28,444 nt of DNA from Burkholderiales bacterium (lineage in GTDB: Bacteria > Pseudomonadota > Gammaproteobacteria > Burkholderiales > Usitatibacteraceae), in NCBI GenBank assembly GCA_043737175.1, contig JAYTBF010000043.1, positions 1 to 28,444 on the forward strand, in the 5' to 3' direction. The notes under the pieces were generated by a model. It searched no databases, was not told the DNA's origin, and worked only from the letters and a program-made list of their open reading frames with translations. Below are positions 5,993 through 14,335 of the stretch, piece by piece. The translations under genes were made by a program, and so were the position numbers. Within the stretch, counting starts at the first letter, position 1. Each line of letters opens with the position of its first letter.

Positions 5993-6976
5993 TTATTCGG
6001 ATAACTCTTTAAATTTGCCAAGCTGCAACAATTTGGCCTGCCGTTGCTGCACCAATTTATCCGGCGATAAATCCTTCAGCTCCTTGAGTGCTTCCGCAAT
6101 CGCCTTTTTTACGGTGGCAGCCATCGCCTTATGGTCACGATGCGCGCCGCCCAAGGGCTCACTCAATATTTTGTCGATCAATCCGAGCGCCTTTAATTTC
6201 GGCGCGGTAATGTTTAACGCTTCTGCCGCCTCCGACGCCTTGGCCGCGTCTTTCCACAAAATGGCCGCGCAGCCTTCCGGCGAAATCACCGAGTAGGTGC
6301 TGTATTGCAACATAAAAGTCACGTCGCCGACGGCAATCGCCAGCGCACCGCCCGATCCACCCTCACCGATGACCGTACAAACCACCGGCACCTTTAGACC
6401 TGCCAATACATATAAATTTTGGCCGATGGCTTCCGATTGCCCGCGCTCCTCGGCACCGACACCGGGATAGGCACCGGGTGTGTCGATAAAGGTAATTAAT
6501 GGCACAGCAAACTTTTCCGCCAACTTCATCAGCCGTAATGCTTTGCGATAACCCTCCGGGCGTGGCATACCAAAATTCCGATACTGCCGGTCTTTGGTGT
6601 CGCGGCCTTTTTGATGACCAATCACCATTACCGATTGACCGTTAAAACGCGCCAATCCGCCGACAATGGCGGCGTCGTCGGAATAACTGCGATCACCATG
6701 CAACTCCTCAAAATCGGTCATCAATAACTTGATGTAATCGAGGGTATAGGGCCGCTGTGGATGGCGGGCCACTTGTGAAATTTGCCAGGCGTTGAGCTTG
6801 CCGTAAATATCTTTGGTCAGCGACTGACTCTTTTTCGACAGCTTGTCGATTTCCGCGGAGATGTCCACGGCGGAATCGTCCTGCACATAGCGCAGCTCTT
6901 CGATCTTGGTCTCAAGCTCGGCGACCGGCTGTTCAAATTCGAGAAACGTCAATTTTGGTGGTGTCGAGGCGGTCAT
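5993..6976 (-). CDS. accA: Acetyl-CoA carboxylase carboxyltransferase alpha subunit
   Basis: [47 protein letters not shown]. Start moved from track 7027 to ATG 6976 ([16 protein letters not shown]), which fits the family N-terminus. Confidence 0.97.
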
Positions 6977-7026: not shown

Positions 7027-7223
7027 ACTTCGCTCGATATAATCGGTTTTACGGGGTTTTGCAAAACCCCTTGACCACCTCAGCGTGAATCTACACAACA
7101 TCCGTACAGCGGGTTCGATGCAGGCAAGTCGCAGCAATTTTGGCTTTATTGCAGCTATTTGTAATGATCTCCCGTCTAACTTGCCCGCCAATCCCACTTA
7201 TTACCCTCACCACCTTCCCCACC

Positions 7224-7781
7224 ATGGCCAATCGACTTTCAAAAATTACCACCCGCACCGGCGATGATGGCAGCACCGGCCTCGGTGACGGTTCGCGGGT
7301 TAAAAAATCGCATCAGCGCATCGCCGCATTGGGCGAGGTCGATGAATTGAGTTGTTTTATTGGCGTGTTGTCCACTGCCAACATCGCCGACCAGCACCGG
7401 CAGATGTTGGTGAACGTCCAAAACGCCCTGTTTGATCTGGGCGGCGAATTGTCGATCCCGACTTTTCGAGCGGTGACTGAAAAACATATCCTTTTCCTGG
7501 ATGGGTTGATTGACGACCTGAATACCAGCCTGCCGCCGCTCAAGGAATTTATTTTGCCGGGCGGATCGGTGGCGGCAGCACATTGCCATGTTGCGCGGGC
7601 GGTGGCGCGCCGCGCGGAACGCAGTGTCGTGAGCCTGAGTGAAAGTGAAGACGTGTCGGCTTTCGCCATACAATATCTCAACCGTTTGTCAGACCTACTG
7701 TTTATTCTGGCGCGCGTCATCAACCGTGACCAGGCTGTCAGTGATGTCTGCTGGACACGTGACGACAAGCCATCCCAATAA
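7224..7781 (+). CDS. PduO-type ATP:cob(I)alamin adenosyltransferase
   Basis: SKITTRTGDDGSTGLGDG, GEVDEL, QNALFDLGGEL, EFILPGG, RRAER, YLNRLSDLLFILAR. Start moved to ATG 7224 (MANRLSKI). Confidence 0.93.
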   Translation: MANRLSKITTRTGDDGSTGLGDGSRVKKSHQRIAALGEVDELSCFIGVLSTANIADQHRQMLVNVQNALFDLGGELSIPTFRAVTEKHILFLDGLIDDLNTSLPPLKEFILPGGSVAAAHCHVARAVARRAERSVVSLSESEDVSAFAIQYLNRLSDLLFILARVINRDQAVSDVCWTRDDKPSQ

Positions 7782-9911: not shown

Positions 9912-10508
9912 ATGATTCGTCGCCAACCATTTTGCGTTCAATGCCCAGCGCAGCCGCATGCGGATGGCACCACTTTCCGTAATGCGCGCGTTTTGATTCT
10001 CACGGCGGCCGTTTTTCTATCGGGATGTGCCACACAAAAATTCAGCCAAGAGCACATTCCTGTGCCATTAAAAGTGCCGGGCGGGCATGCCGCCACCATG
10101 GAAACCGCCGCAGCGGGCAACATGATGTTCCAGTGCCTCGCAAAAATTGATGGGATTGGTTTTGACTGGTCGCTGACTGACATTGACGCCAGCCTAAAAA
10201 ACCGCGACGGCAAAGTCGTCGGACGTTTTGTCGGACCGCCCGCGACTTGGCAGGCAAGTGATGGCTCCATATTGACCGCGACACGACTGGCCACAGCACC
10301 GGCCATAAATCAACCGTCCGGCGCCCTGCCGCTGGCGTTATACCAAGCCAAACCGGCGACCGGGAGGGGCGTGATGACCGCAGTCACATATATCCAGCAG
10401 CTTGCCACCATCGGTGGCACTGCACCAGCAGGGTGTGATCAAACTCTGCTCAACAAAAAACACAAAGTGGCTTTTCAATCCGACTTTATTTTTTATAAAG
10501 CAAATTAA
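9912..10508 (+). CDS. DUF3455-like lipoprotein
   Basis: Lipobox FLSGC; VPGGH...FQC...GPPATW...DGS...VTYIQ...GGTAP...C...DFIFY matches my recollection of DUF3455, which often lies near ECF/RskA pairs. ATG 9912 chosen because it lies after the upstream stop. Confidence 0.75.
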   Translation: MIRRQPFCVQCPAQPHADGTTFRNARVLILTAAVFLSGCATQKFSQEHIPVPLKVPGGHAATMETAAAGNMMFQCLAKIDGIGFDWSLTDIDASLKNRDGKVVGRFVGPPATWQASDGSILTATRLATAPAINQPSGALPLALYQAKPATGRGVMTAVTYIQQLATIGGTAPAGCDQTLLNKKHKVAFQSDFIFYKAN

Positions 10509-11383
10509 TTTGTTTTGTTGCGGCGAATGCGTTCCAACACCCCGCATATTTGTTCGGCCGCATCGATCAACCGTGGACCGGGTCGCATGACCCAATCGGC
10601 TGTCAGCGAAATAATTTGTCCGGACTGTTCGGCACGTGAACCGGCATAGGCCGAATTATCGCGGGAAGGGTCTGCCGCCGCGTGCGGCTTGCCACCATAC
10701 AGCACCACCTGTGGATTTTTAACCAGCAACATTTCGCGCGACGGCGTAAACACCAATGGTGCGACGTCGGCAAAAACATTTACTCCGCCGCAGATTCGTA
10801 GTACCTCGGAAATAAAATGCCGGCCATTAATCGTCATCAGCGGCACCCGGCTGATTTCAAAAAAAACCGGCAAAGATGCGGAGTTTGAAAATTGGTTTTG
10901 CAGCTTGCTGAAGCGTCGCTCGAAATCTGCTGCAGCGGACTCGGCTTGCATCCCGGAACCCCCCCATTGACCAATCTTGCGCAATACCAACGGCACATCC
11001 ACCATTGTTGTGACCGTGATCGATTCAACACGTATACCCAACGCCTGCAGGCGCTGAATATCATTTAAGCGGGTACCACTGGCCCACACCAGCACCAAGT
11101 CCGGCTTGACCGCCAATAACGCCTCAATATTGATGCCACTCGCGTCCGCAACCTGCGGGATTTTTTTCGCCTGTAGTGGAAAGTCGCTAAACGCTGAACT
11201 GGCGACCAGCTTGCCGCCCGCCCCCGCCGCAAACACCAGCTCGGTGAGCGCCGGTGAGGTGCTGACAATACGTTGCGCAGGCGCGGCAGTGGCCACACCT
11301 GATGCATGCGCCACGACCGCAAACCATGCCAGCCCAACAATGGCCATCAGCAACCGGCTAACCACCCTAACCAATACGGCCAT
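10505..11383 (-). CDS. btuF: Cobalamin-binding periplasmic protein (BtuF-like)
   Basis: Signal peptide, RIVSTSPALTELVFAAG, EALLAVKPDLVL, CGGVNVFAD, MRPGPRLIDAAEQIC. Confidence 0.8.
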   Translation of the reverse strand: MAVLVRVVSRLLMAIVGLAWFAVVAHASGVATAAPAQRIVSTSPALTELVFAAGAGGKLVASSAFSDFPLQAKKIPQVADASGINIEALLAVKPDLVLVWASGTRLNDIQRLQALGIRVESITVTTMVDVPLVLRKIGQWGGSGMQAESAAADFERRFSKLQNQFSNSASLPVFFEISRVPLMTINGRHFISEVLRICGGVNVFADVAPLVFTPSREMLLVKNPQVVLYGGKPHAAADPSRDNSAYAGSRAEQSGQIISLTADWVMRPGPRLIDAAEQICGVLERIRRNKTN

Positions 11384-11385
11384 TT

Positions 11386-12315
11386 TTAAGCCGCGGGTTT
11401 CGTGGACGCGGTGGTCGCTTGAAAGCGCGCCGCCAACAACAGGCGCTGTTCGTAGGCGGCACGGGCGATGGCAACATCTTCCAGAAAATACGGCAACTCT
11501 TCGAGTGTGATCGCCTGTGCGGCGTCGACCAATGATTTTTTCGGCAGCGGGTGCATATCCACCAACAACATATTGGCACCGGCAATCACGCCTTGTGCCG
11601 CCACGTGGAAAATATCCAAAATGCCGTCCGGTGATGCGCCACGCGCACCAACCGAGTGGGAGGGATCAACACAAACCGGCATACGCGTAAGGCGATGCAC
11701 CACCGGCACATGGCCAAAATCAACCAAATTGCGATGTGGGTCACCCAAATTCGTTTTCATGCCGCGCAGACCAAACATGATTTTGGTGTTGCCTTCGGAG
11801 GCGCAATATTCCGCGGCCATGAGTGATTCATCGAGAGTGATACCAAAACCACGTTTGAGCAAAATCGGAAATTCATTCTGGCGGCCAACGGCTTTCAACA
11901 ACTCAAAATTTTGCGTGTTGCGCGTGCCGATTTGCAACATCACACCGGTTGGGCTTCCGGTCTGATGCAAGGCCTCATTGATTTCATTCAGATGCGCCTC
12001 GCGGGTGATTTCCATGGAGATCACCTTGATGCCATATTTTCCGGCCAGCTCAAACACCCACGGCAAACACTCCCGTCCCATGCCTTGAAACGAATACGGA
12101 CTGGAACGCGGTTTGTACGCTCCCATACGCGCGCACACCTGGCCGTGTATGCGCAAACAGGCAAAGGTGGCCTCAACATATTCACGGGTATCAACGGCGT
12201 TGAGCCCGGCAAACGTGTGCAAATTATGTTGGTTGAAGGTCACACCGTTATAGGTAAAACCAACATCGTGTTCATCGGCCTGGTGGCGGCCGAGTATGCG
12301 TAATTCAATGGCCAT
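11386..12315 (-). CDS. Class I-beta DAHP-synthase-like protein, catalytic barrel only, atypical metal site
   Basis: RMGAYKPRSSPYSFQG, QIGTRNTQNFELLK, LKRG, DPSHSVG motifs. AGLN sits where metal-dependent enzymes have AGPC. Starts 5 nt after the aroG stop. Confidence 0.85.
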   Translation of the reverse strand: MAIELRILGRHQADEHDVGFTYNGVTFNQHNLHTFAGLNAVDTREYVEATFACLRIHGQVCARMGAYKPRSSPYSFQGMGRECLPWVFELAGKYGIKVISMEITREAHLNEINEALHQTGSPTGVMLQIGTRNTQNFELLKAVGRQNEFPILLKRGFGITLDESLMAAEYCASEGNTKIMFGLRGMKTNLGDPHRNLVDFGHVPVVHRLTRMPVCVDPSHSVGARGASPDGILDIFHVAAQGVIAGANMLLVDMHPLPKKSLVDAAQAITLEELPYFLEDVAIARAAYEQRLLLAARFQATTASTKPAA

Positions 12316-12320
12316 GATGG

Positions 12321-13436
12321 TTACTCCACGTTCAGCAAACGACGCTCACGCACCGCTTGCGCCAATTGCCGCAACAATTTTTCGGTGTCGTCCCAATTGA
12401 TGCAGGCATCCGTGACCGACACGCCGTATTGCAACGGTTTGCCGACTTCGATGTCTTGGCGGCCGGCATTCAAATGACTTTCCACCATCACCCCCACCAC
12501 GCGCTGATCACCACTAACAATTTGCGCGGCCACATCGGTCGCCACGTCCATTTGTTTTTGGTATTGTTTGGACGAGTTGGCGTGCGAAAAATCAATCATC
12601 ACCCGTTGCGCGAGCCCCGCCTTGGCCAATTCCTGACACGCCGAATCGACATTCACCGCATCGTAGTTGGGCGTTTTACCACCGCGCAAAATAATGTGGC
12701 AGTCTTCGTTTCCGGCAGTGGAAACAATCGCCGAATGCCCGCCTTTGGTGACCGACAAAAAGTGATGTGGTGCCGACGAAGCCTTGATGGCATCGACAGC
12801 GATTTTGATATTGCCGTCGGTGCCGTTTTTGAAGCCAACCGGACAAGACAAGCCGGACGCCAACTGGCGGTGGGATTGTGATTCGGTGGTGCGCGCACCA
12901 ATAGCGCCCCAGGCAATCATGTCGGCAAAATATTGCGGCGAAATCAAATCCAAATATTCTGTACCGGCCGCCAGACCAAGCTCATTAATATCCAACAGTA
13001 ACTTGCGCGCCAGCCGTAGGCCCTTATTGATATCGTGGCTCTCATCCATATCCGGATCGTTGATGTAGCCCTTCCAACCGACCGTGGTACGGGGCTTTTC
13101 GAAATAAACCCGCATCACAATAGTCAAATCCGGCTCAAGGCTGATCCGTAGCGCCTGTAATCGGCGGGCATATTCCATGGCCGCGTCGTAATCATGAATC
13201 GAGCACGGGCCGATGATGACCAGCAATCGTGAATCACCACGATGCATGATGCGATGAATTTCTTCACGGGCGCGAAACACCGTCGCCGAAGCCTGTTCAC
13301 TCAATGGAAATTCACGCATTAAATGCGCCGGCGGCGTTAATTCCTTGATGCCACGAATTCGTAAGTCATCGGTGTTATAGGGCATGGCAGATTCCGGTTG
13401 CGGTTTGGATACGACGGTCAGATTGGCTTTGGTCAT
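12321..13436 (-). CDS. aroG: Class I-alpha 3-deoxy-7-phosphoheptulonate synthase
   Basis: GPCSIHD, MRVYFEKPRTTVGWKG, IGARTTESQ, ASGLSCPVGFKN, DFSHAN, MVESHL, TDACI; all four metal ligands present. Confidence 0.95.
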   Translation of the reverse strand: MTKANLTVVSKPQPESAMPYNTDDLRIRGIKELTPPAHLMREFPLSEQASATVFRAREEIHRIMHRGDSRLLVIIGPCSIHDYDAAMEYARRLQALRISLEPDLTIVMRVYFEKPRTTVGWKGYINDPDMDESHDINKGLRLARKLLLDINELGLAAGTEYLDLISPQYFADMIAWGAIGARTTESQSHRQLASGLSCPVGFKNGTDGNIKIAVDAIKASSAPHHFLSVTKGGHSAIVSTAGNEDCHIILRGGKTPNYDAVNVDSACQELAKAGLAQRVMIDFSHANSSKQYQKQMDVATDVAAQIVSGDQRVVGVMVESHLNAGRQDIEVGKPLQYGVSVTDACINWDDTEKLLRQLAQAVRERRLLNVE

Positions 13437-13511: not shown

Positions 13512-13547
13512 AAAAAAAAACCGCCGAATTTTCGTTCGGCGGTTTTT
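13512..13547 (-). terminator. Intrinsic terminator (attenuator 3:4 hairpin) in the aroG leader
   Basis: Minus strand AAAAACCGCCGAA-cgaaaa-TTCGGCGGTTTTTTTTT: perfect stem followed by a 9-U tract, 75 nt upstream of the aroG ATG. Confidence 0.88.
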
Positions 13548-13575
13548 AGAATTTTGGTTAGTTTTCAAAAGCAAA

Positions 13576-13644
13576 CTAACCCTTCTCCGCCGGTGGCATG
13601 GAAAAGGACCAGAAATAAAAATAGGAATTGGCGCGAATGTTCAT
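13576..13644 (-). CDS. Putative attenuator leader peptide, MNIRANSYFYFWSFSMPPAEKG (22 aa)
   Basis: Manual translation ATG(13644)-TAG(13576); six aromatic codons within residues 8-14; overlaps alternative hairpins ahead of the terminator. Confidence 0.82.
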   Translation of the reverse strand: MNIRANSYFYFWSFSMPPAEKG

Positions 13645-13786: not shown

Positions 13787-14335
13787 TTACGAGGCAGTGG
13801 CTTTAAAAATCAGTGCCGCACCATTGTTACACCAGCGTTCACGGGTTGGTGCCGGACCGTCCTTGAAGATATGACCATGATGGCCACCGCAGCGGGCGCA
13901 GTGATATTCGGTGCGCGGCAAAATCAGTTTGAAATCGGTTTTTTTATTGAATACACCCGGCAGGGTCGTAAAAAAACTCGGCCAGCCGGTGCCACTTTCA
14001 AATTTCATTGCCGAGCTAAACACCGCCAGATCACAACCGGCGCAATGAAACAAACCCTGGCGTTTTTCGTCATTGAGCGGGCTGCTTCCCCCGCGTTCGG
14101 TACCTTCGTTGCGTAGCACCTCAAACTGCGCGGGTGTCAGGCGTTTTTTCCATTCGTTATCGGCCAGTTCCAACTTGTCTATTTTTGGCTTTGGTCCGTT
14201 GGCCTGATCAAGCGCAATTTTGACCATTGAAGCGTCCGGCGCCTCCGGTCCGCGACGTTGTGCAAATACACCCTTAAACATGGTTAGTCCTCCTGCAGTG
14301 CCAAATAGTGCGGTGAGAAATGTACGTCGTTTCAT
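13787..14335 (-). CDS. msrB: Peptide-methionine (R)-S-oxide reductase with twin-arginine signal
   Basis: MKRRTFL Tat-like motif, LRNEGTE, CAGC/CARC zinc pairs, GTGWPSF, GHHGHIF, RWCNNG. Confidence 0.93.
   Translation of the reverse strand: MKRRTFLTALFGTAGGLTMFKGVFAQRRGPEAPDASMVKIALDQANGPKPKIDKLELADNEWKKRLTPAQFEVLRNEGTERGGSSPLNDEKRQGLFHCAGCDLAVFSSAMKFESGTGWPSFFTTLPGVFNKKTDFKLILPRTEYHCARCGGHHGHIFKDGPAPTRERWCNNGAALIFKATAS

What the first reader, a model, noticed from the sequence alone, without database searches (positions are those of the whole stretch)
11386..12315. DAHP-synthase-like enzyme with a Cys-to-Asn metal-site swap: possibly metal-independent or repurposed
Seen: residue 39 is Asn (AAC, 12199-12201) in FAGLNAVD, where I-beta DAHP synthases have the metal-ligand Cys (AGPCSVE). 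The Glu ligand position is Asp (LVDMHP). The KPRS aldose-binding motif, GTRN, KRG, DPSH and the last Asp are kept. Established: this Cys/Asn exchange separates metal-dependent (Aquifex) from metal-independent (E. coli) KDO8P synthases, whereas characterised DAHP synthases need a divalent metal. KPR(S/T) rather than KANRS marks the DAHP branch. Inference: a natural metal-independent DAHP synthase acting as a backup under metal limitation or oxidation, an enzyme with another aldose substrate, or a pseudo-enzyme.
Basis: partly seen in the sequence, partly recalled or inferred. Interest (0 to 1): 0.8.

Follow-up and report, generated by a model that had tools for sequence, protein, structure and literature searches.

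The report
DAHP synthase lacking its metal cysteine
This gene is a well-conserved second copy of the enzyme that starts aromatic amino-acid synthesis, in which asparagine replaces the cysteine that normally holds the essential metal, so it may be the first natural metal-free form of an enzype thought always to need a metal.

Summary
ORF 11386-12315 (-) encodes a 309-aa type I-beta DAHP-synthase barrel. Asn39 (AAC, 12199-12201) aligns with the metal-ligand Cys102 of the Thermotoga enzyme, and Asp253 aligns with its Glu298. His, the last Asp, KPRS, GTRN and KRG are kept.

It is not an error or a decaying gene. Asn is found in 12 of 12 species of the genus (AAC or AAT) and in 10 of 10 sampled genomes from seven genera of the family. 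dN/dS is 0.04, as low as the adjacent aroG.

The gene lies in a conserved unit: aromatic leader-peptide attenuator, aroG (I-alpha), this gene, then a btuF-like gene. It has lost the N-terminal regulatory domain that its Cys-type relatives carry.

A related Asn-type group is the only DAHP synthase found in five genomes of an order labelled Francisellaceae. Those five are the only genomes of 41 in that order with a full chorismate synthase. So Asn-type enzymes very probably make DAHP.

Metal independence is inferred by analogy with Asn-type KDO8P synthases and is untested. The Glu-to-Asp change is shared with Cys-type relatives, so it is unrelated to the swap.

This scan has met Cys-to-Asn I-beta offshoots before, but those had also lost the KPRT arginine and sat with sugar-activation genes. 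This protein is not one of them.

The parts
13576..13644 (-). 22-codon leader peptide rich in aromatic codons (SYFYFWSF core)
   Evidence: Read directly. Already noted by an earlier scan entry, e1-5305500.
13512..13542 (-). Intrinsic terminator of the attenuator: a GC-rich hairpin followed by nine T
   Evidence: Sequence. It lies between the leader and the aroG start.
12321..13436 (-). aroG, a type I-alpha DAHP synthase of 371 aa
   Evidence: NCBIfam AroG equivalog scores 598 bits against a cut-off of 568. Pfam PF00793 scores 318 bits.
11386..12315 (-). Asn-type, domain-less type I-beta DAHP synthase paralogue (P0001, 309 aa). It starts 5 nt after the aroG stop.
12199..12201 (-). Asn39 codon (AAC) at the position of the metal-ligand Cys
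12103..12114 (-). KPRS motif (residues 68-71), the DAHP-synthase-type aldose-phosphate motif
   Evidence: K68, P69 and R70 are invariant in alignment A2.
11656..11658 (-). His220 in DPSH, aligned with metal ligand His272 of 1RZM
11557..11559 (-). Asp253 in VDMHP, aligned with metal ligand Glu298 of 1RZM. This is a trait of the whole subfamily.
11524..11526 (-). Asp264, aligned with metal ligand Asp309 of 1RZM. It is followed by Ala-Ala where Cys-type relatives have Gly-Pro.
10505..11383 (-). btuF-like periplasmic binding protein. It starts 2 nt after the I-beta stop and keeps this position across the family.

Best explanation
P0001 is a catalytically active type I-beta DAHP synthase isozyme, condensing PEP with erythrose 4-phosphate. 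It has lost two things. One is the N-terminal ferredoxin-like allosteric domain of its closest relatives. The other is the thiolate metal ligand, Cys changed to Asn. It is co-transcribed with the feedback-regulated I-alpha enzyme AroG, behind a leader-peptide attenuator rich in Tyr, Phe and Trp codons, so both enzymes would be made when aromatic amino acids run short.

By analogy with KDO8P synthases, where this same Cys/Asn exchange separates metal-dependent from metal-independent enzymes, the Asn amide would take over the orienting and polarising role of the metal. The enzyme would then work without a bound transition metal. It would therefore be insensitive to metal scarcity and to the oxidative loss of Fe(II) that poisons ordinary DAHP synthases.

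Shown here: the anatomy, the conservation, the operon structure, and the phyletic link of Asn-type enzymes to the shikimate pathway. Inferred: catalytic activity of this particular copy (my estimate about 0.75) and metal independence (about 0.5).
For: - Fold and family. Pfam PF00793 scores 130 bits. The best sequence matches in the PDB are I-beta DAHP synthases at E about 1e-42, against 1e-7 or weaker for KDO8P synthases. The AlphaFold model has pLDDT 93.7, and its top 23 Foldseek hits are all I-beta DAHP synthases, with TM 0.90-0.92 normalised to 1ZCO and 4C1K.
- Catalytic motifs. K68, P69, R70, Q128, G130, R132, N133, K154, R155, G156, R184, D217, S219, H220, H255, D264 and Q267 are invariant across 50 Asn-type and Cys-type sequences.
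- Selection. Median pairwise dN/dS in the genus is 0.041, against 0.050 for aroG and 0.22 for btuF. The Asn codon varies synonymously, AAC in 8 species and AAT in 4.
- Distribution. The gene is present in 94 of 106 genomes of the family that are at least 85% complete. All 10 loci sampled from other genera have Asn and the aroG / I-beta / btuF order.
- Aromatic context. The gene starts 5 nt after aroG and lies behind an aromatic leader peptide and terminator. The nearest Cys-type relatives carry the DAHP-synthase ferredoxin-like domain PF18152 or a fused chorismate mutase.
- Phyletic profile. In the order of G044 (41 species genomes), the five genomes with an Asn-type I-beta gene hold, within PF00793, only KdsA plus that gene. 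They have no type II enzyme. They are exactly the five with a full-length chorismate synthase.
- Precedent. In KDO8P synthase, Cys to Asn is the required switch to metal independence, with accompanying changes in the loop that carries the Asp ligand (PMC3052366). Here the same loop differs too: VDGPQ in Cys-type, VDAAQ or VDAKQ in Asn-type.
- Possible benefit. H2O2 oxidises the Fe(II) of E. coli DAHP synthase and causes aromatic auxotrophy (PMC8115020).
Against: - No Asn-type DAHP synthase has been assayed. All characterised DAHP synthases share the metal site, and a 2025 paper still describes an absolute metal requirement (PMC6435475, PMC12531865).
- In DAHP synthase the metal is thought to bind the aldehyde oxygen of E4P more directly than in KDO8P synthase, so the analogy may fail.
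- In this family AroG is always present, and the I-beta gene has been lost in some genomes. One is the complete genome G005, where only a 5' remnant is left. So the gene is dispensable here and necessity cannot be argued.
- Asn, His, Asp and Asp could still hold a hard metal such as Mn2+.
- The protein scores below the curated NCBIfam cut-offs for I-beta DAHP synthase: 208 against 335 and 190 against 268.
- The five genomes in which it is the sole enzyme are MAGs of unstated completeness and are not independent lineages.
Confidence: 0.5

Rival explanations
1. It is an active DAHP synthase that still needs a divalent metal. The metal would be held by Asn (amide oxygen), His220, Asp253 and Asp264. 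The swap would change metal preference towards hard ions such as Mn2+ or Mg2+ and remove an oxidisable thiolate, without abolishing the metal requirement.
For: Three of the four ligand positions keep metal-binding side chains and are invariant or nearly so. All characterised DAHP synthases are metal-dependent (PMC6435475, PMC12531865). The evidence that the protein is active fits this reading equally well.
Against: Asn-type KDO8P synthases also keep His, Glu and Asp, yet bind no metal (PMC3052366). The loop after the Asp ligand has changed together with the Cys, as it did on the path to metal-free KDO8P synthase.
Confidence: 0.25
2. It is a neofunctionalised aldolase. With AroG covering DAHP synthesis in this family, the paralogue would now condense PEP with another aldose and feed a different product.
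For: It is redundant with AroG and has been lost in several genomes of the family. It scores below the NCBIfam cut-offs. This scan has found another I-beta offshoot with Cys to Asn that probably makes a surface sugar acid.
Against: The KPR(S/T) motif and every other substrate motif are kept, whereas that offshoot has lost the Arg. No sugar-activation or secondary-metabolite genes are nearby; the neighbours are aroG, btuF, msrB and tldD. The gene is co-transcribed behind an aromatic attenuator. Asn-type relatives 54-62% identical, with the same invariant residues, track the shikimate pathway. A separate kdsA exists in the genome.
Confidence: 0.1
3. It is a non-catalytic or weakly catalytic partner of AroG, a pseudo-enzyme subunit that modulates the I-alpha enzyme. 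This would explain the tight gene linkage kept across the family.
For: The aroG / I-beta adjacency, with gaps of a few bases, is kept across at least seven genera. The protein has lost both its own regulatory domain and the metal Cys.
Against: The second Asn-type group occurs without any AroG, and next to lolCDE. Conservation is concentrated on the catalytic motifs. No I-alpha/I-beta heteromer is known (my knowledge). No complex prediction was run.
Confidence: 0.1
4. It is a sequencing or assembly error, or a decaying pseudogene.
For: The window comes from a fragmented MAG: 407 contigs, 83% complete.
Against: Asn is found in every orthologue examined, with both Asn codons in use. Cys to Asn needs two base changes. 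The frame is intact and dN/dS is 0.04.
Confidence: 0.01

Closest known systems
Unregulated and regulated type I-beta DAHP synthases: Pyrococcus furiosus 1ZCO/4C1K, Aeropyrum pernix 1VS1, Thermotoga maritima 1RZM/3PG8
   Same: The barrel is the same, with TM 0.90-0.92 normalised to the target and about 33-35% identity. It shares KPR(S/T), GxRN, KRG, DPSH and the final Asp. Like 1ZCO and 1VS1 it is a bare barrel with only an N-terminal hairpin.
   Different: Asn replaces the Cys ligand, Leu replaces the preceding Pro, and Asp replaces the Glu ligand. There are two insertions, of about 8 aa after strand 3 and about 7 aa after DPSHSVG. It scores below the curated family cut-offs.
The Cys-type 'GLCAVD / VDxHP' subfamily of I-beta DAHP synthases, with an N-terminal ferredoxin-like domain (PF18152) or a C-terminal chorismate mutase. 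It occurs in records labelled Gallionella, Nitrosomonas, Acidithiobacillus ferrivorans, Ca. Berkiella, Oleiphilus and others. I know of no characterised member.
   Same: It is 63-73% identical and has the same insertions, the same Leu before the ligand and the same Asp at the Glu position. In sister families of the same order it sits next to tldD. In this family the Asn-type gene also lies a few genes from tldD.
   Different: Those proteins keep the Cys and the roughly 72-aa regulatory domain. Besides position 39, this protein differs from them at T62A, H79M, N166M, F254M, G265A and P266A.
Metal-independent (Asn-type) KDO8P synthases such as E. coli KdsA 1D9E, and the engineered Aquifex aeolicus path from metallo to non-metallo enzyme (2NWS, 2NXG-2NXI, 2EF9)
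   Same: It belongs to the same superfamily. It has the same Cys-to-Asn exchange at the same strand-1 position, and accompanying changes in the loop that carries the Asp ligand (PMC3052366).
   Different: Identity is only 16-23%. It has KPRS where those have KANRS. The KdsA models score 44 bits against a cut-off of 242. The genome has its own kdsA on another contig. It resembles this group in the metal-site change but is not a member.
The I-beta-derived 'KPLS' offshoot with Cys to Asn, found earlier in this scan in sugar-activation operons (e1-5226560, e1-4351215, e1-5252890, e1-2072794, e1-2967945)
   Same: It has a I-beta barrel with Asn at the metal-Cys position.
   Different: That offshoot has lost the phosphate-binding Arg of KPRT and travels with sugar-activating genes. 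P0001 keeps KPRS and travels with aroG behind an aromatic attenuator. I did not compare the sequences directly.

Membership tests
Type I-beta DAHP synthase (PF00793; TIGR01361 / NF006421) | (beta/alpha)8 barrel of the DAHP_synth_1 family | tested here: met
   Pfam scores 130 bits against a cut-off of 25.5. The AlphaFold model has pLDDT 93.7, and its top 23 Foldseek hits are all I-beta DAHP synthases.
Type I-beta DAHP synthase (PF00793; TIGR01361 / NF006421) | KPR(S/T) aldose-phosphate motif, where KDO8P synthases have KANRS | tested here: met
   KPRS lies at residues 68-71. K, P and R are invariant in 50 aligned sequences.
Type I-beta DAHP synthase (PF00793; TIGR01361 / NF006421) | PEP-binding and catalytic motifs: QIGxRN, LKRG, the RG of strand 6, DPSH | tested here: met
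   Q128, G130, R132, N133, K154, R155, G156, R184, G185, D217, S219 and H220 are invariant.
Type I-beta DAHP synthase (PF00793; TIGR01361 / NF006421) | Metal site made of Cys, His, Glu and Asp | tested here: not met
   The aligned positions hold Asn39, His220, Asp253 and Asp264.
Type I-beta DAHP synthase (PF00793; TIGR01361 / NF006421) | Score above the curated NCBIfam cut-off | tested here: not met
   NF006421 scores 208 against 335. TIGR01361 scores 190 against 268.
Type I-beta DAHP synthase (PF00793; TIGR01361 / NF006421) | Catalyses PEP + E4P to DAHP as the entry to the shikimate pathway | not testable with these tools
   Only indirect evidence exists. The gene is in an aromatic-attenuated operon with aroG. 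Asn-type relatives are the sole DAHP synthase found in the five genomes of an order that keep a full chorismate synthase.
Regulated I-beta DAHP synthase (T. maritima type) | N-terminal ferredoxin-like (PF18152) or fused chorismate-mutase regulatory domain | tested here: not met
   The protein starts at the domain boundary, 5 nt after the aroG stop. Sister proteins carry about 72 extra residues that match PF18152.
Metal-independent KDO8P synthase | Asn at the position of the metal-ligand Cys | tested here: met
   Asn39.
Metal-independent KDO8P synthase | KANRS motif and KdsA-level sequence similarity | tested here: not met
   The motif is KPRS. The KdsA models score 41-44 bits against cut-offs of 242-314. 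A separate kdsA lies on contig C229.
I-beta 'KPLS' sugar-acid offshoot (earlier scan notes) | Loss of the KPRT Arg and linkage to sugar-activation genes | tested here: not met
   Arg70 is kept. The neighbours are aroG, btuF-like, msrB and tldD.

The most novel reading that the evidence does not exclude
There is a natural, old and widespread clade of DAHP synthases that work without the canonical thiolate-bound metal. It would repeat within the aromatic pathway the Cys/Asn, metal/non-metal split known only from KDO8P synthase. In some bacteria labelled Francisellaceae it would be the only entry into the shikimate pathway. In a family of soil Burkholderiales it would serve as an unregulated, oxidation-proof and metal-sparing partner of AroG.
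Probability: 0.45. Interest if true: 0.8.

Novelty: new variant of a known kind. Interest (0 to 1): 0.66.

Why it matters
[quoted passage not shown] The sister enzyme KDO8P synthase became a model for metal/non-metal switching because nature made both forms.

A natural Asn-type DAHP synthase would give the same experimental handle for the aromatic pathway: reciprocal N39C and C-to-N mutants, and structures with and without metal. It would also be a candidate oxidation-resistant, iron-independent enzyme, which is relevant because H2O2 poisons the Fe(II) form in E. coli (PMC8115020). It would matter for inhibitor design that targets the metal site, and could be a useful feedback-free part for shikimate-pathway engineering.

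If the protein instead proves metal-dependent through Asn, it would still define a new ligand set for this enzyme class.

Tried and rejected
- Literature searches for a metal-independent or Asn-type DAHP synthase found nothing relevant. The library is limited to open-access papers, so this is weak evidence of novelty.
- The scan of genome contigs with an Asn-type alignment returned mostly Cys-type loci. The second Asn clade was not among the best 80.
- Several loci of the second Asn clade (L023, L025, L107, L109) are not held as genomes and could not be searched.
- Number of origins of the Asn. The free tree needs two changes, but the AU test does not reject a single Asn clade (p 0.57; the constrained tree even had the higher likelihood). 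I therefore make no claim of convergence.
- Six further columns differ between Asn-type and Cys-type proteins. At three of them the Asn-type residue matches canonical I-beta enzymes, so they may reflect ancestry and not co-adaptation. Only the Gly-Pro loss after the Asp ligand is offered as a parallel to KDO8P synthase.
- Sequencing error and pseudogene: rejected.
- I did not run a complex prediction for AroG plus P0001, because I do not claim that they bind.
- I did not lay reads on the window, because cross-species conservation already settles the codon.

Full report
**1. What is there**

The minus-strand ORF 11386-12315 encodes a 309-aa protein, P0001. Pfam places it in DAHP_synth_1 at 130 bits. 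The NCBIfam models for I-beta DAHP synthase are its best matches but fall well below their curated cut-offs: NF006421 scores 208 against 335 and TIGR01361 scores 190 against 268. The KdsA models score only about 41-44 bits.

Against the PDB, the best sequence matches are the I-beta DAHP synthases of Thermotoga, Pyrococcus, Aeropyrum, Listeria and Geobacillus, at E about 1e-42 to 1e-37. KDO8P synthases follow at 1e-7 or weaker. An AlphaFold model built on a 50-sequence alignment is confident (pLDDT 93.7, pTM 0.92). Its first 23 Foldseek hits in the PDB are all I-beta DAHP synthases, with TM 0.90-0.92 normalised to the 262-residue Pyrococcus enzyme.

**2. The observation**

In the HMMER alignments FAGLNAVD pairs with IAGPCSVE. 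Counting along the 1RZM alignment gives these pairs:
- Asn39 with Cys102
- His220 with His272
- Asp253 with Glu298
- Asp264 with Asp309

That these four are the Thermotoga metal ligands is from my memory of the 1RZM paper. The aligned positions themselves are a tool result. Codon 39 is AAC at 12199-12201. KPRS, GTRN, KRG, R184 and DPSH are all present.

**3. It is not an error and not a decaying gene**

- In 12 species of the genus the residue is always Asn. Eight use AAC and four use AAT.
- 117 of the 119 closest metagenomic clusters (85-92% identical) show G[LV]N[AS]VD. The motif pattern did not match in the other two.
- Ten loci sampled from other genera of the same family all carry Asn.
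- The gene is found in 94 of 106 family genomes that are at least 85% complete. This tally includes one unpublished genome, G146. No claim here depends on it.
- Median pairwise dN/dS in the genus is 0.041 for this gene, 0.050 for the adjacent aroG and 0.22 for the downstream btuF-like gene.

The protein is thus at least as constrained as the housekeeping enzyme next to it.

**4. Surroundings**

The gene starts 5 nt after the stop of a 371-aa AroG-type (I-alpha) DAHP synthase, whose NCBIfam AroG equivalog scores 598 bits against a cut-off of 568. It ends 2 nt before a btuF-like periplasmic binding protein.

Upstream of aroG lies a 22-codon leader peptide with the run SYFYFWSF, followed by a hairpin and a run of nine T. 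This agrees with an earlier scan note that reads it as an aromatic attenuator. No convincing terminator separates the three genes.

The order (tldD, msrB) aroG, I-beta(Asn), btuF is kept through the family. Most genera have two tandem aroG copies. Titles of related loci name Usitatibacter sp. and unclassified Burkholderiales MAGs.

The window's genome has three PF00793 members, which are aroG, this gene and a kdsA, and no type II DAHP synthase.

The gene is dispensable here. The complete genome G005 of the same genus keeps aroG and btuF, but only a short 5' remnant of the I-beta gene. About a dozen other family genomes lack it.

**5. Relatives**

An exhaustive HMMER search and two word-based searches show that P0001 belongs to a distinct I-beta subfamily. 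The subfamily is marked by Leu where canonical enzymes have Pro before the ligand, by Asp after it, by VDxHP where they have VExHP, and by two short insertions.

Most members keep the Cys (GLCAVD). They carry an N-terminal domain of about 72 aa that matches the DAHP-synthase ferredoxin-like domain PF18152, or a C-terminal chorismate mutase. They occur in records labelled Gallionella, Nitrosomonas, Acidithiobacillus ferrivorans, Ca. Berkiella, Oleiphilaceae, Competibacteraceae, Acidobacteriota and others. In a Ca. Berkiella genome the Cys-type protein is the only DAHP synthase found. So the subfamily is a genuine aromatic-pathway enzyme, and the Glu-to-Asp change is a subfamily trait unrelated to the Asn.

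In sister families of the window's order, the Cys-type gene with its regulatory domain sits next to tldD. In the window's family, tldD is a few genes from the Asn-type gene. This suggests that the Asn-type gene descends in place from such an ancestor, after aroG arrived upstream and the regulatory domain was deleted exactly at its boundary. That is an inference.

**6. A second Asn-type group, and the key functional evidence**

About 20 further clusters have GLNAVD, GLNAID or GLNTVD. Most are short (303-322 aa) and some carry an N-terminal extension. They lie next to lolCDE with no aroG nearby, and one cluster is labelled Francisellaceae.

The free tree places them apart from the window's clade, which implies two changes. 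However, an AU test does not reject a single Asn clade (p 0.57), so I do not claim independent origins.

In the order that contains one of these genomes (G044; 41 species genomes) the pattern is as follows:
- Five genomes (G044, G072-G075) carry an Asn-type gene.
- In those five the only PF00793 members are KdsA and the Asn-type gene.
- None of the five has a type II enzyme.
- They are exactly the five genomes with a full-length chorismate synthase. G044 also has a dehydroquinate synthase.
- Thirty-five genomes have KdsA only or nothing from PF00793, and no chorismate synthase.
- One genome (G076) has a second PF00793 hit that looks like a I-alpha enzyme (210 bits, 374-aa frame), plus a chorismate-synthase fragment.

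This phyletic profile is strong circumstantial evidence that Asn-type enzymes supply DAHP. There are caveats. These are MAGs of unstated completeness, and relatives are not independent. The window's protein is 54-62% identical to the short forms of that group and 46-49% to its long forms. It does share all their invariant catalytic residues.

**7. Mechanism**

In KDO8P synthase the Cys-to-Asn substitution is the change absolutely required to pass from metal-dependent to metal-independent catalysis. Further changes in the loop carrying the Asp ligand are needed for good activity (PMC3052366).

Here the same loop differs between the types: VDGPQ in Cys-type proteins, VDAAQ or VDAKQ in Asn-type ones. 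Positions 62, 79, 166 and 254 differ as well. Some of these Asn-type residues match canonical I-beta enzymes and may simply be ancestral.

The most likely reading is that Asn39 replaces the metal in orienting and polarising the reacting groups, giving a DAHP synthase with no thiolate-bound metal. Equally compatible with my data is a harder metal such as Mn2+ held by Asn, His, Asp and Asp.

Either way the enzyme loses an oxidisable Cys-Fe(II) centre. That centre is the known weak point of E. coli DAHP synthase under H2O2 stress (PMC8115020). Lacking any allosteric domain, the enzyme would be controlled only at the level of transcription, by the shared attenuator.

**8. Comparison and novelty**

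All characterised DAHP synthases share the divalent-metal site (PMC6435475), and a 2025 paper still lists the metal requirement as absolute (PMC12531865). My searches of the open literature found no report of an Asn-type DAHP synthase.

This scan has previously followed up a different I-beta offshoot that also has Cys to Asn. That offshoot has lost the KPRT arginine and sits in sugar-activation operons. P0001 keeps the arginine and sits in an aromatic operon, so it is not that family.

I file P0001 as a new variant of a known kind. It is a I-beta DAHP synthase by fold, motifs and context, but it fails the family's metal-ligand criterion and the curated score cut-offs. At the metal site it resembles the Asn-type KDO8P synthases without being one of them.

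**9. Verdict**

- My probabilities are:

| Reading | Probability |
|---|---|
| Active and metal-independent | about 0.5 |
| Active but still metal-dependent | about 0.25 |
| Shifted to another substrate | about 0.1 |
| Non-catalytic partner of AroG | about 0.1 |
| Artefact or pseudogene | about 0.01 |

- The deciding experiment is a simple enzyme assay with and without chelator and metals, plus the reciprocal N39C and C-to-N mutants.

Noticed in passing
L019 (G005:C1:2567000-2580000), about 6290-6470 in locus coordinates: In a complete genome of the same genus, the I-beta gene has been deleted between aroG and btuF. Only a remnant matching residues 1-53 is left, with a stop codon. The btuF-like gene there appears split into two ORFs.
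   Followed up: partly
window 10505-11383 (-), and the same position in L005-L015, L028, L030, L094, L095, L115-L124: A btuF-like class III periplasmic binding protein always follows the Asn-type DAHP synthase across the family. It scores below the BtuF equivalog cut-off (189 against 234 bits). It evolves much faster than its neighbours (35-74% identity, dN/dS 0.22). I see no functional reason for the linkage. A PduO-type cobalamin adenosyltransferase lies at 7140-7781.
   Followed up: partly
L030, L094, L095, L115, L116, L118, L119, L121-L124: Most genera of the family carry two tandem aroG (I-alpha) genes upstream of the Asn-type gene, giving three DAHP synthases in a row. The window's genus and two other genera (L117, L120) have one.
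   Followed up: partly
window 13512-13644 (-): An aromatic leader peptide (22 codons, core SYFYFWSF) and an intrinsic terminator lie upstream of aroG. An earlier scan note had already followed this up. I only re-read the sequence.
   Followed up: partly
L016, L018 (G027, G034) and L041 (Ca. Berkiella, G041): The Cys-type GLCAVD / VDxHP subfamily, with a ferredoxin-like domain, is widespread in records labelled Gammaproteobacteria and Acidobacteriota, and I know of no characterised member. It is adjacent to tldD in two sister families. It is the only DAHP synthase found in a Ca. Berkiella genome.
   Followed up: partly
G045-G084 (order of G044): Most genomes of this order, including eight of only 0.3-0.4 Mb, have no chorismate synthase and no DAHP synthase. 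They are presumably aromatic auxotrophs or host-dependent. The five that keep the pathway all use the Asn-type enzyme.
   Followed up: partly
window 13787-14335 (-): An MsrB (SelR) protein with an N-terminal twin-arginine-like signal sequence lies just upstream of the attenuated operon, and keeps this position across the family.
   Followed up: no
L118 (G113:C52): One family member has GRNAVD, with Arg where the others have Leu before the Asn.
   Followed up: no
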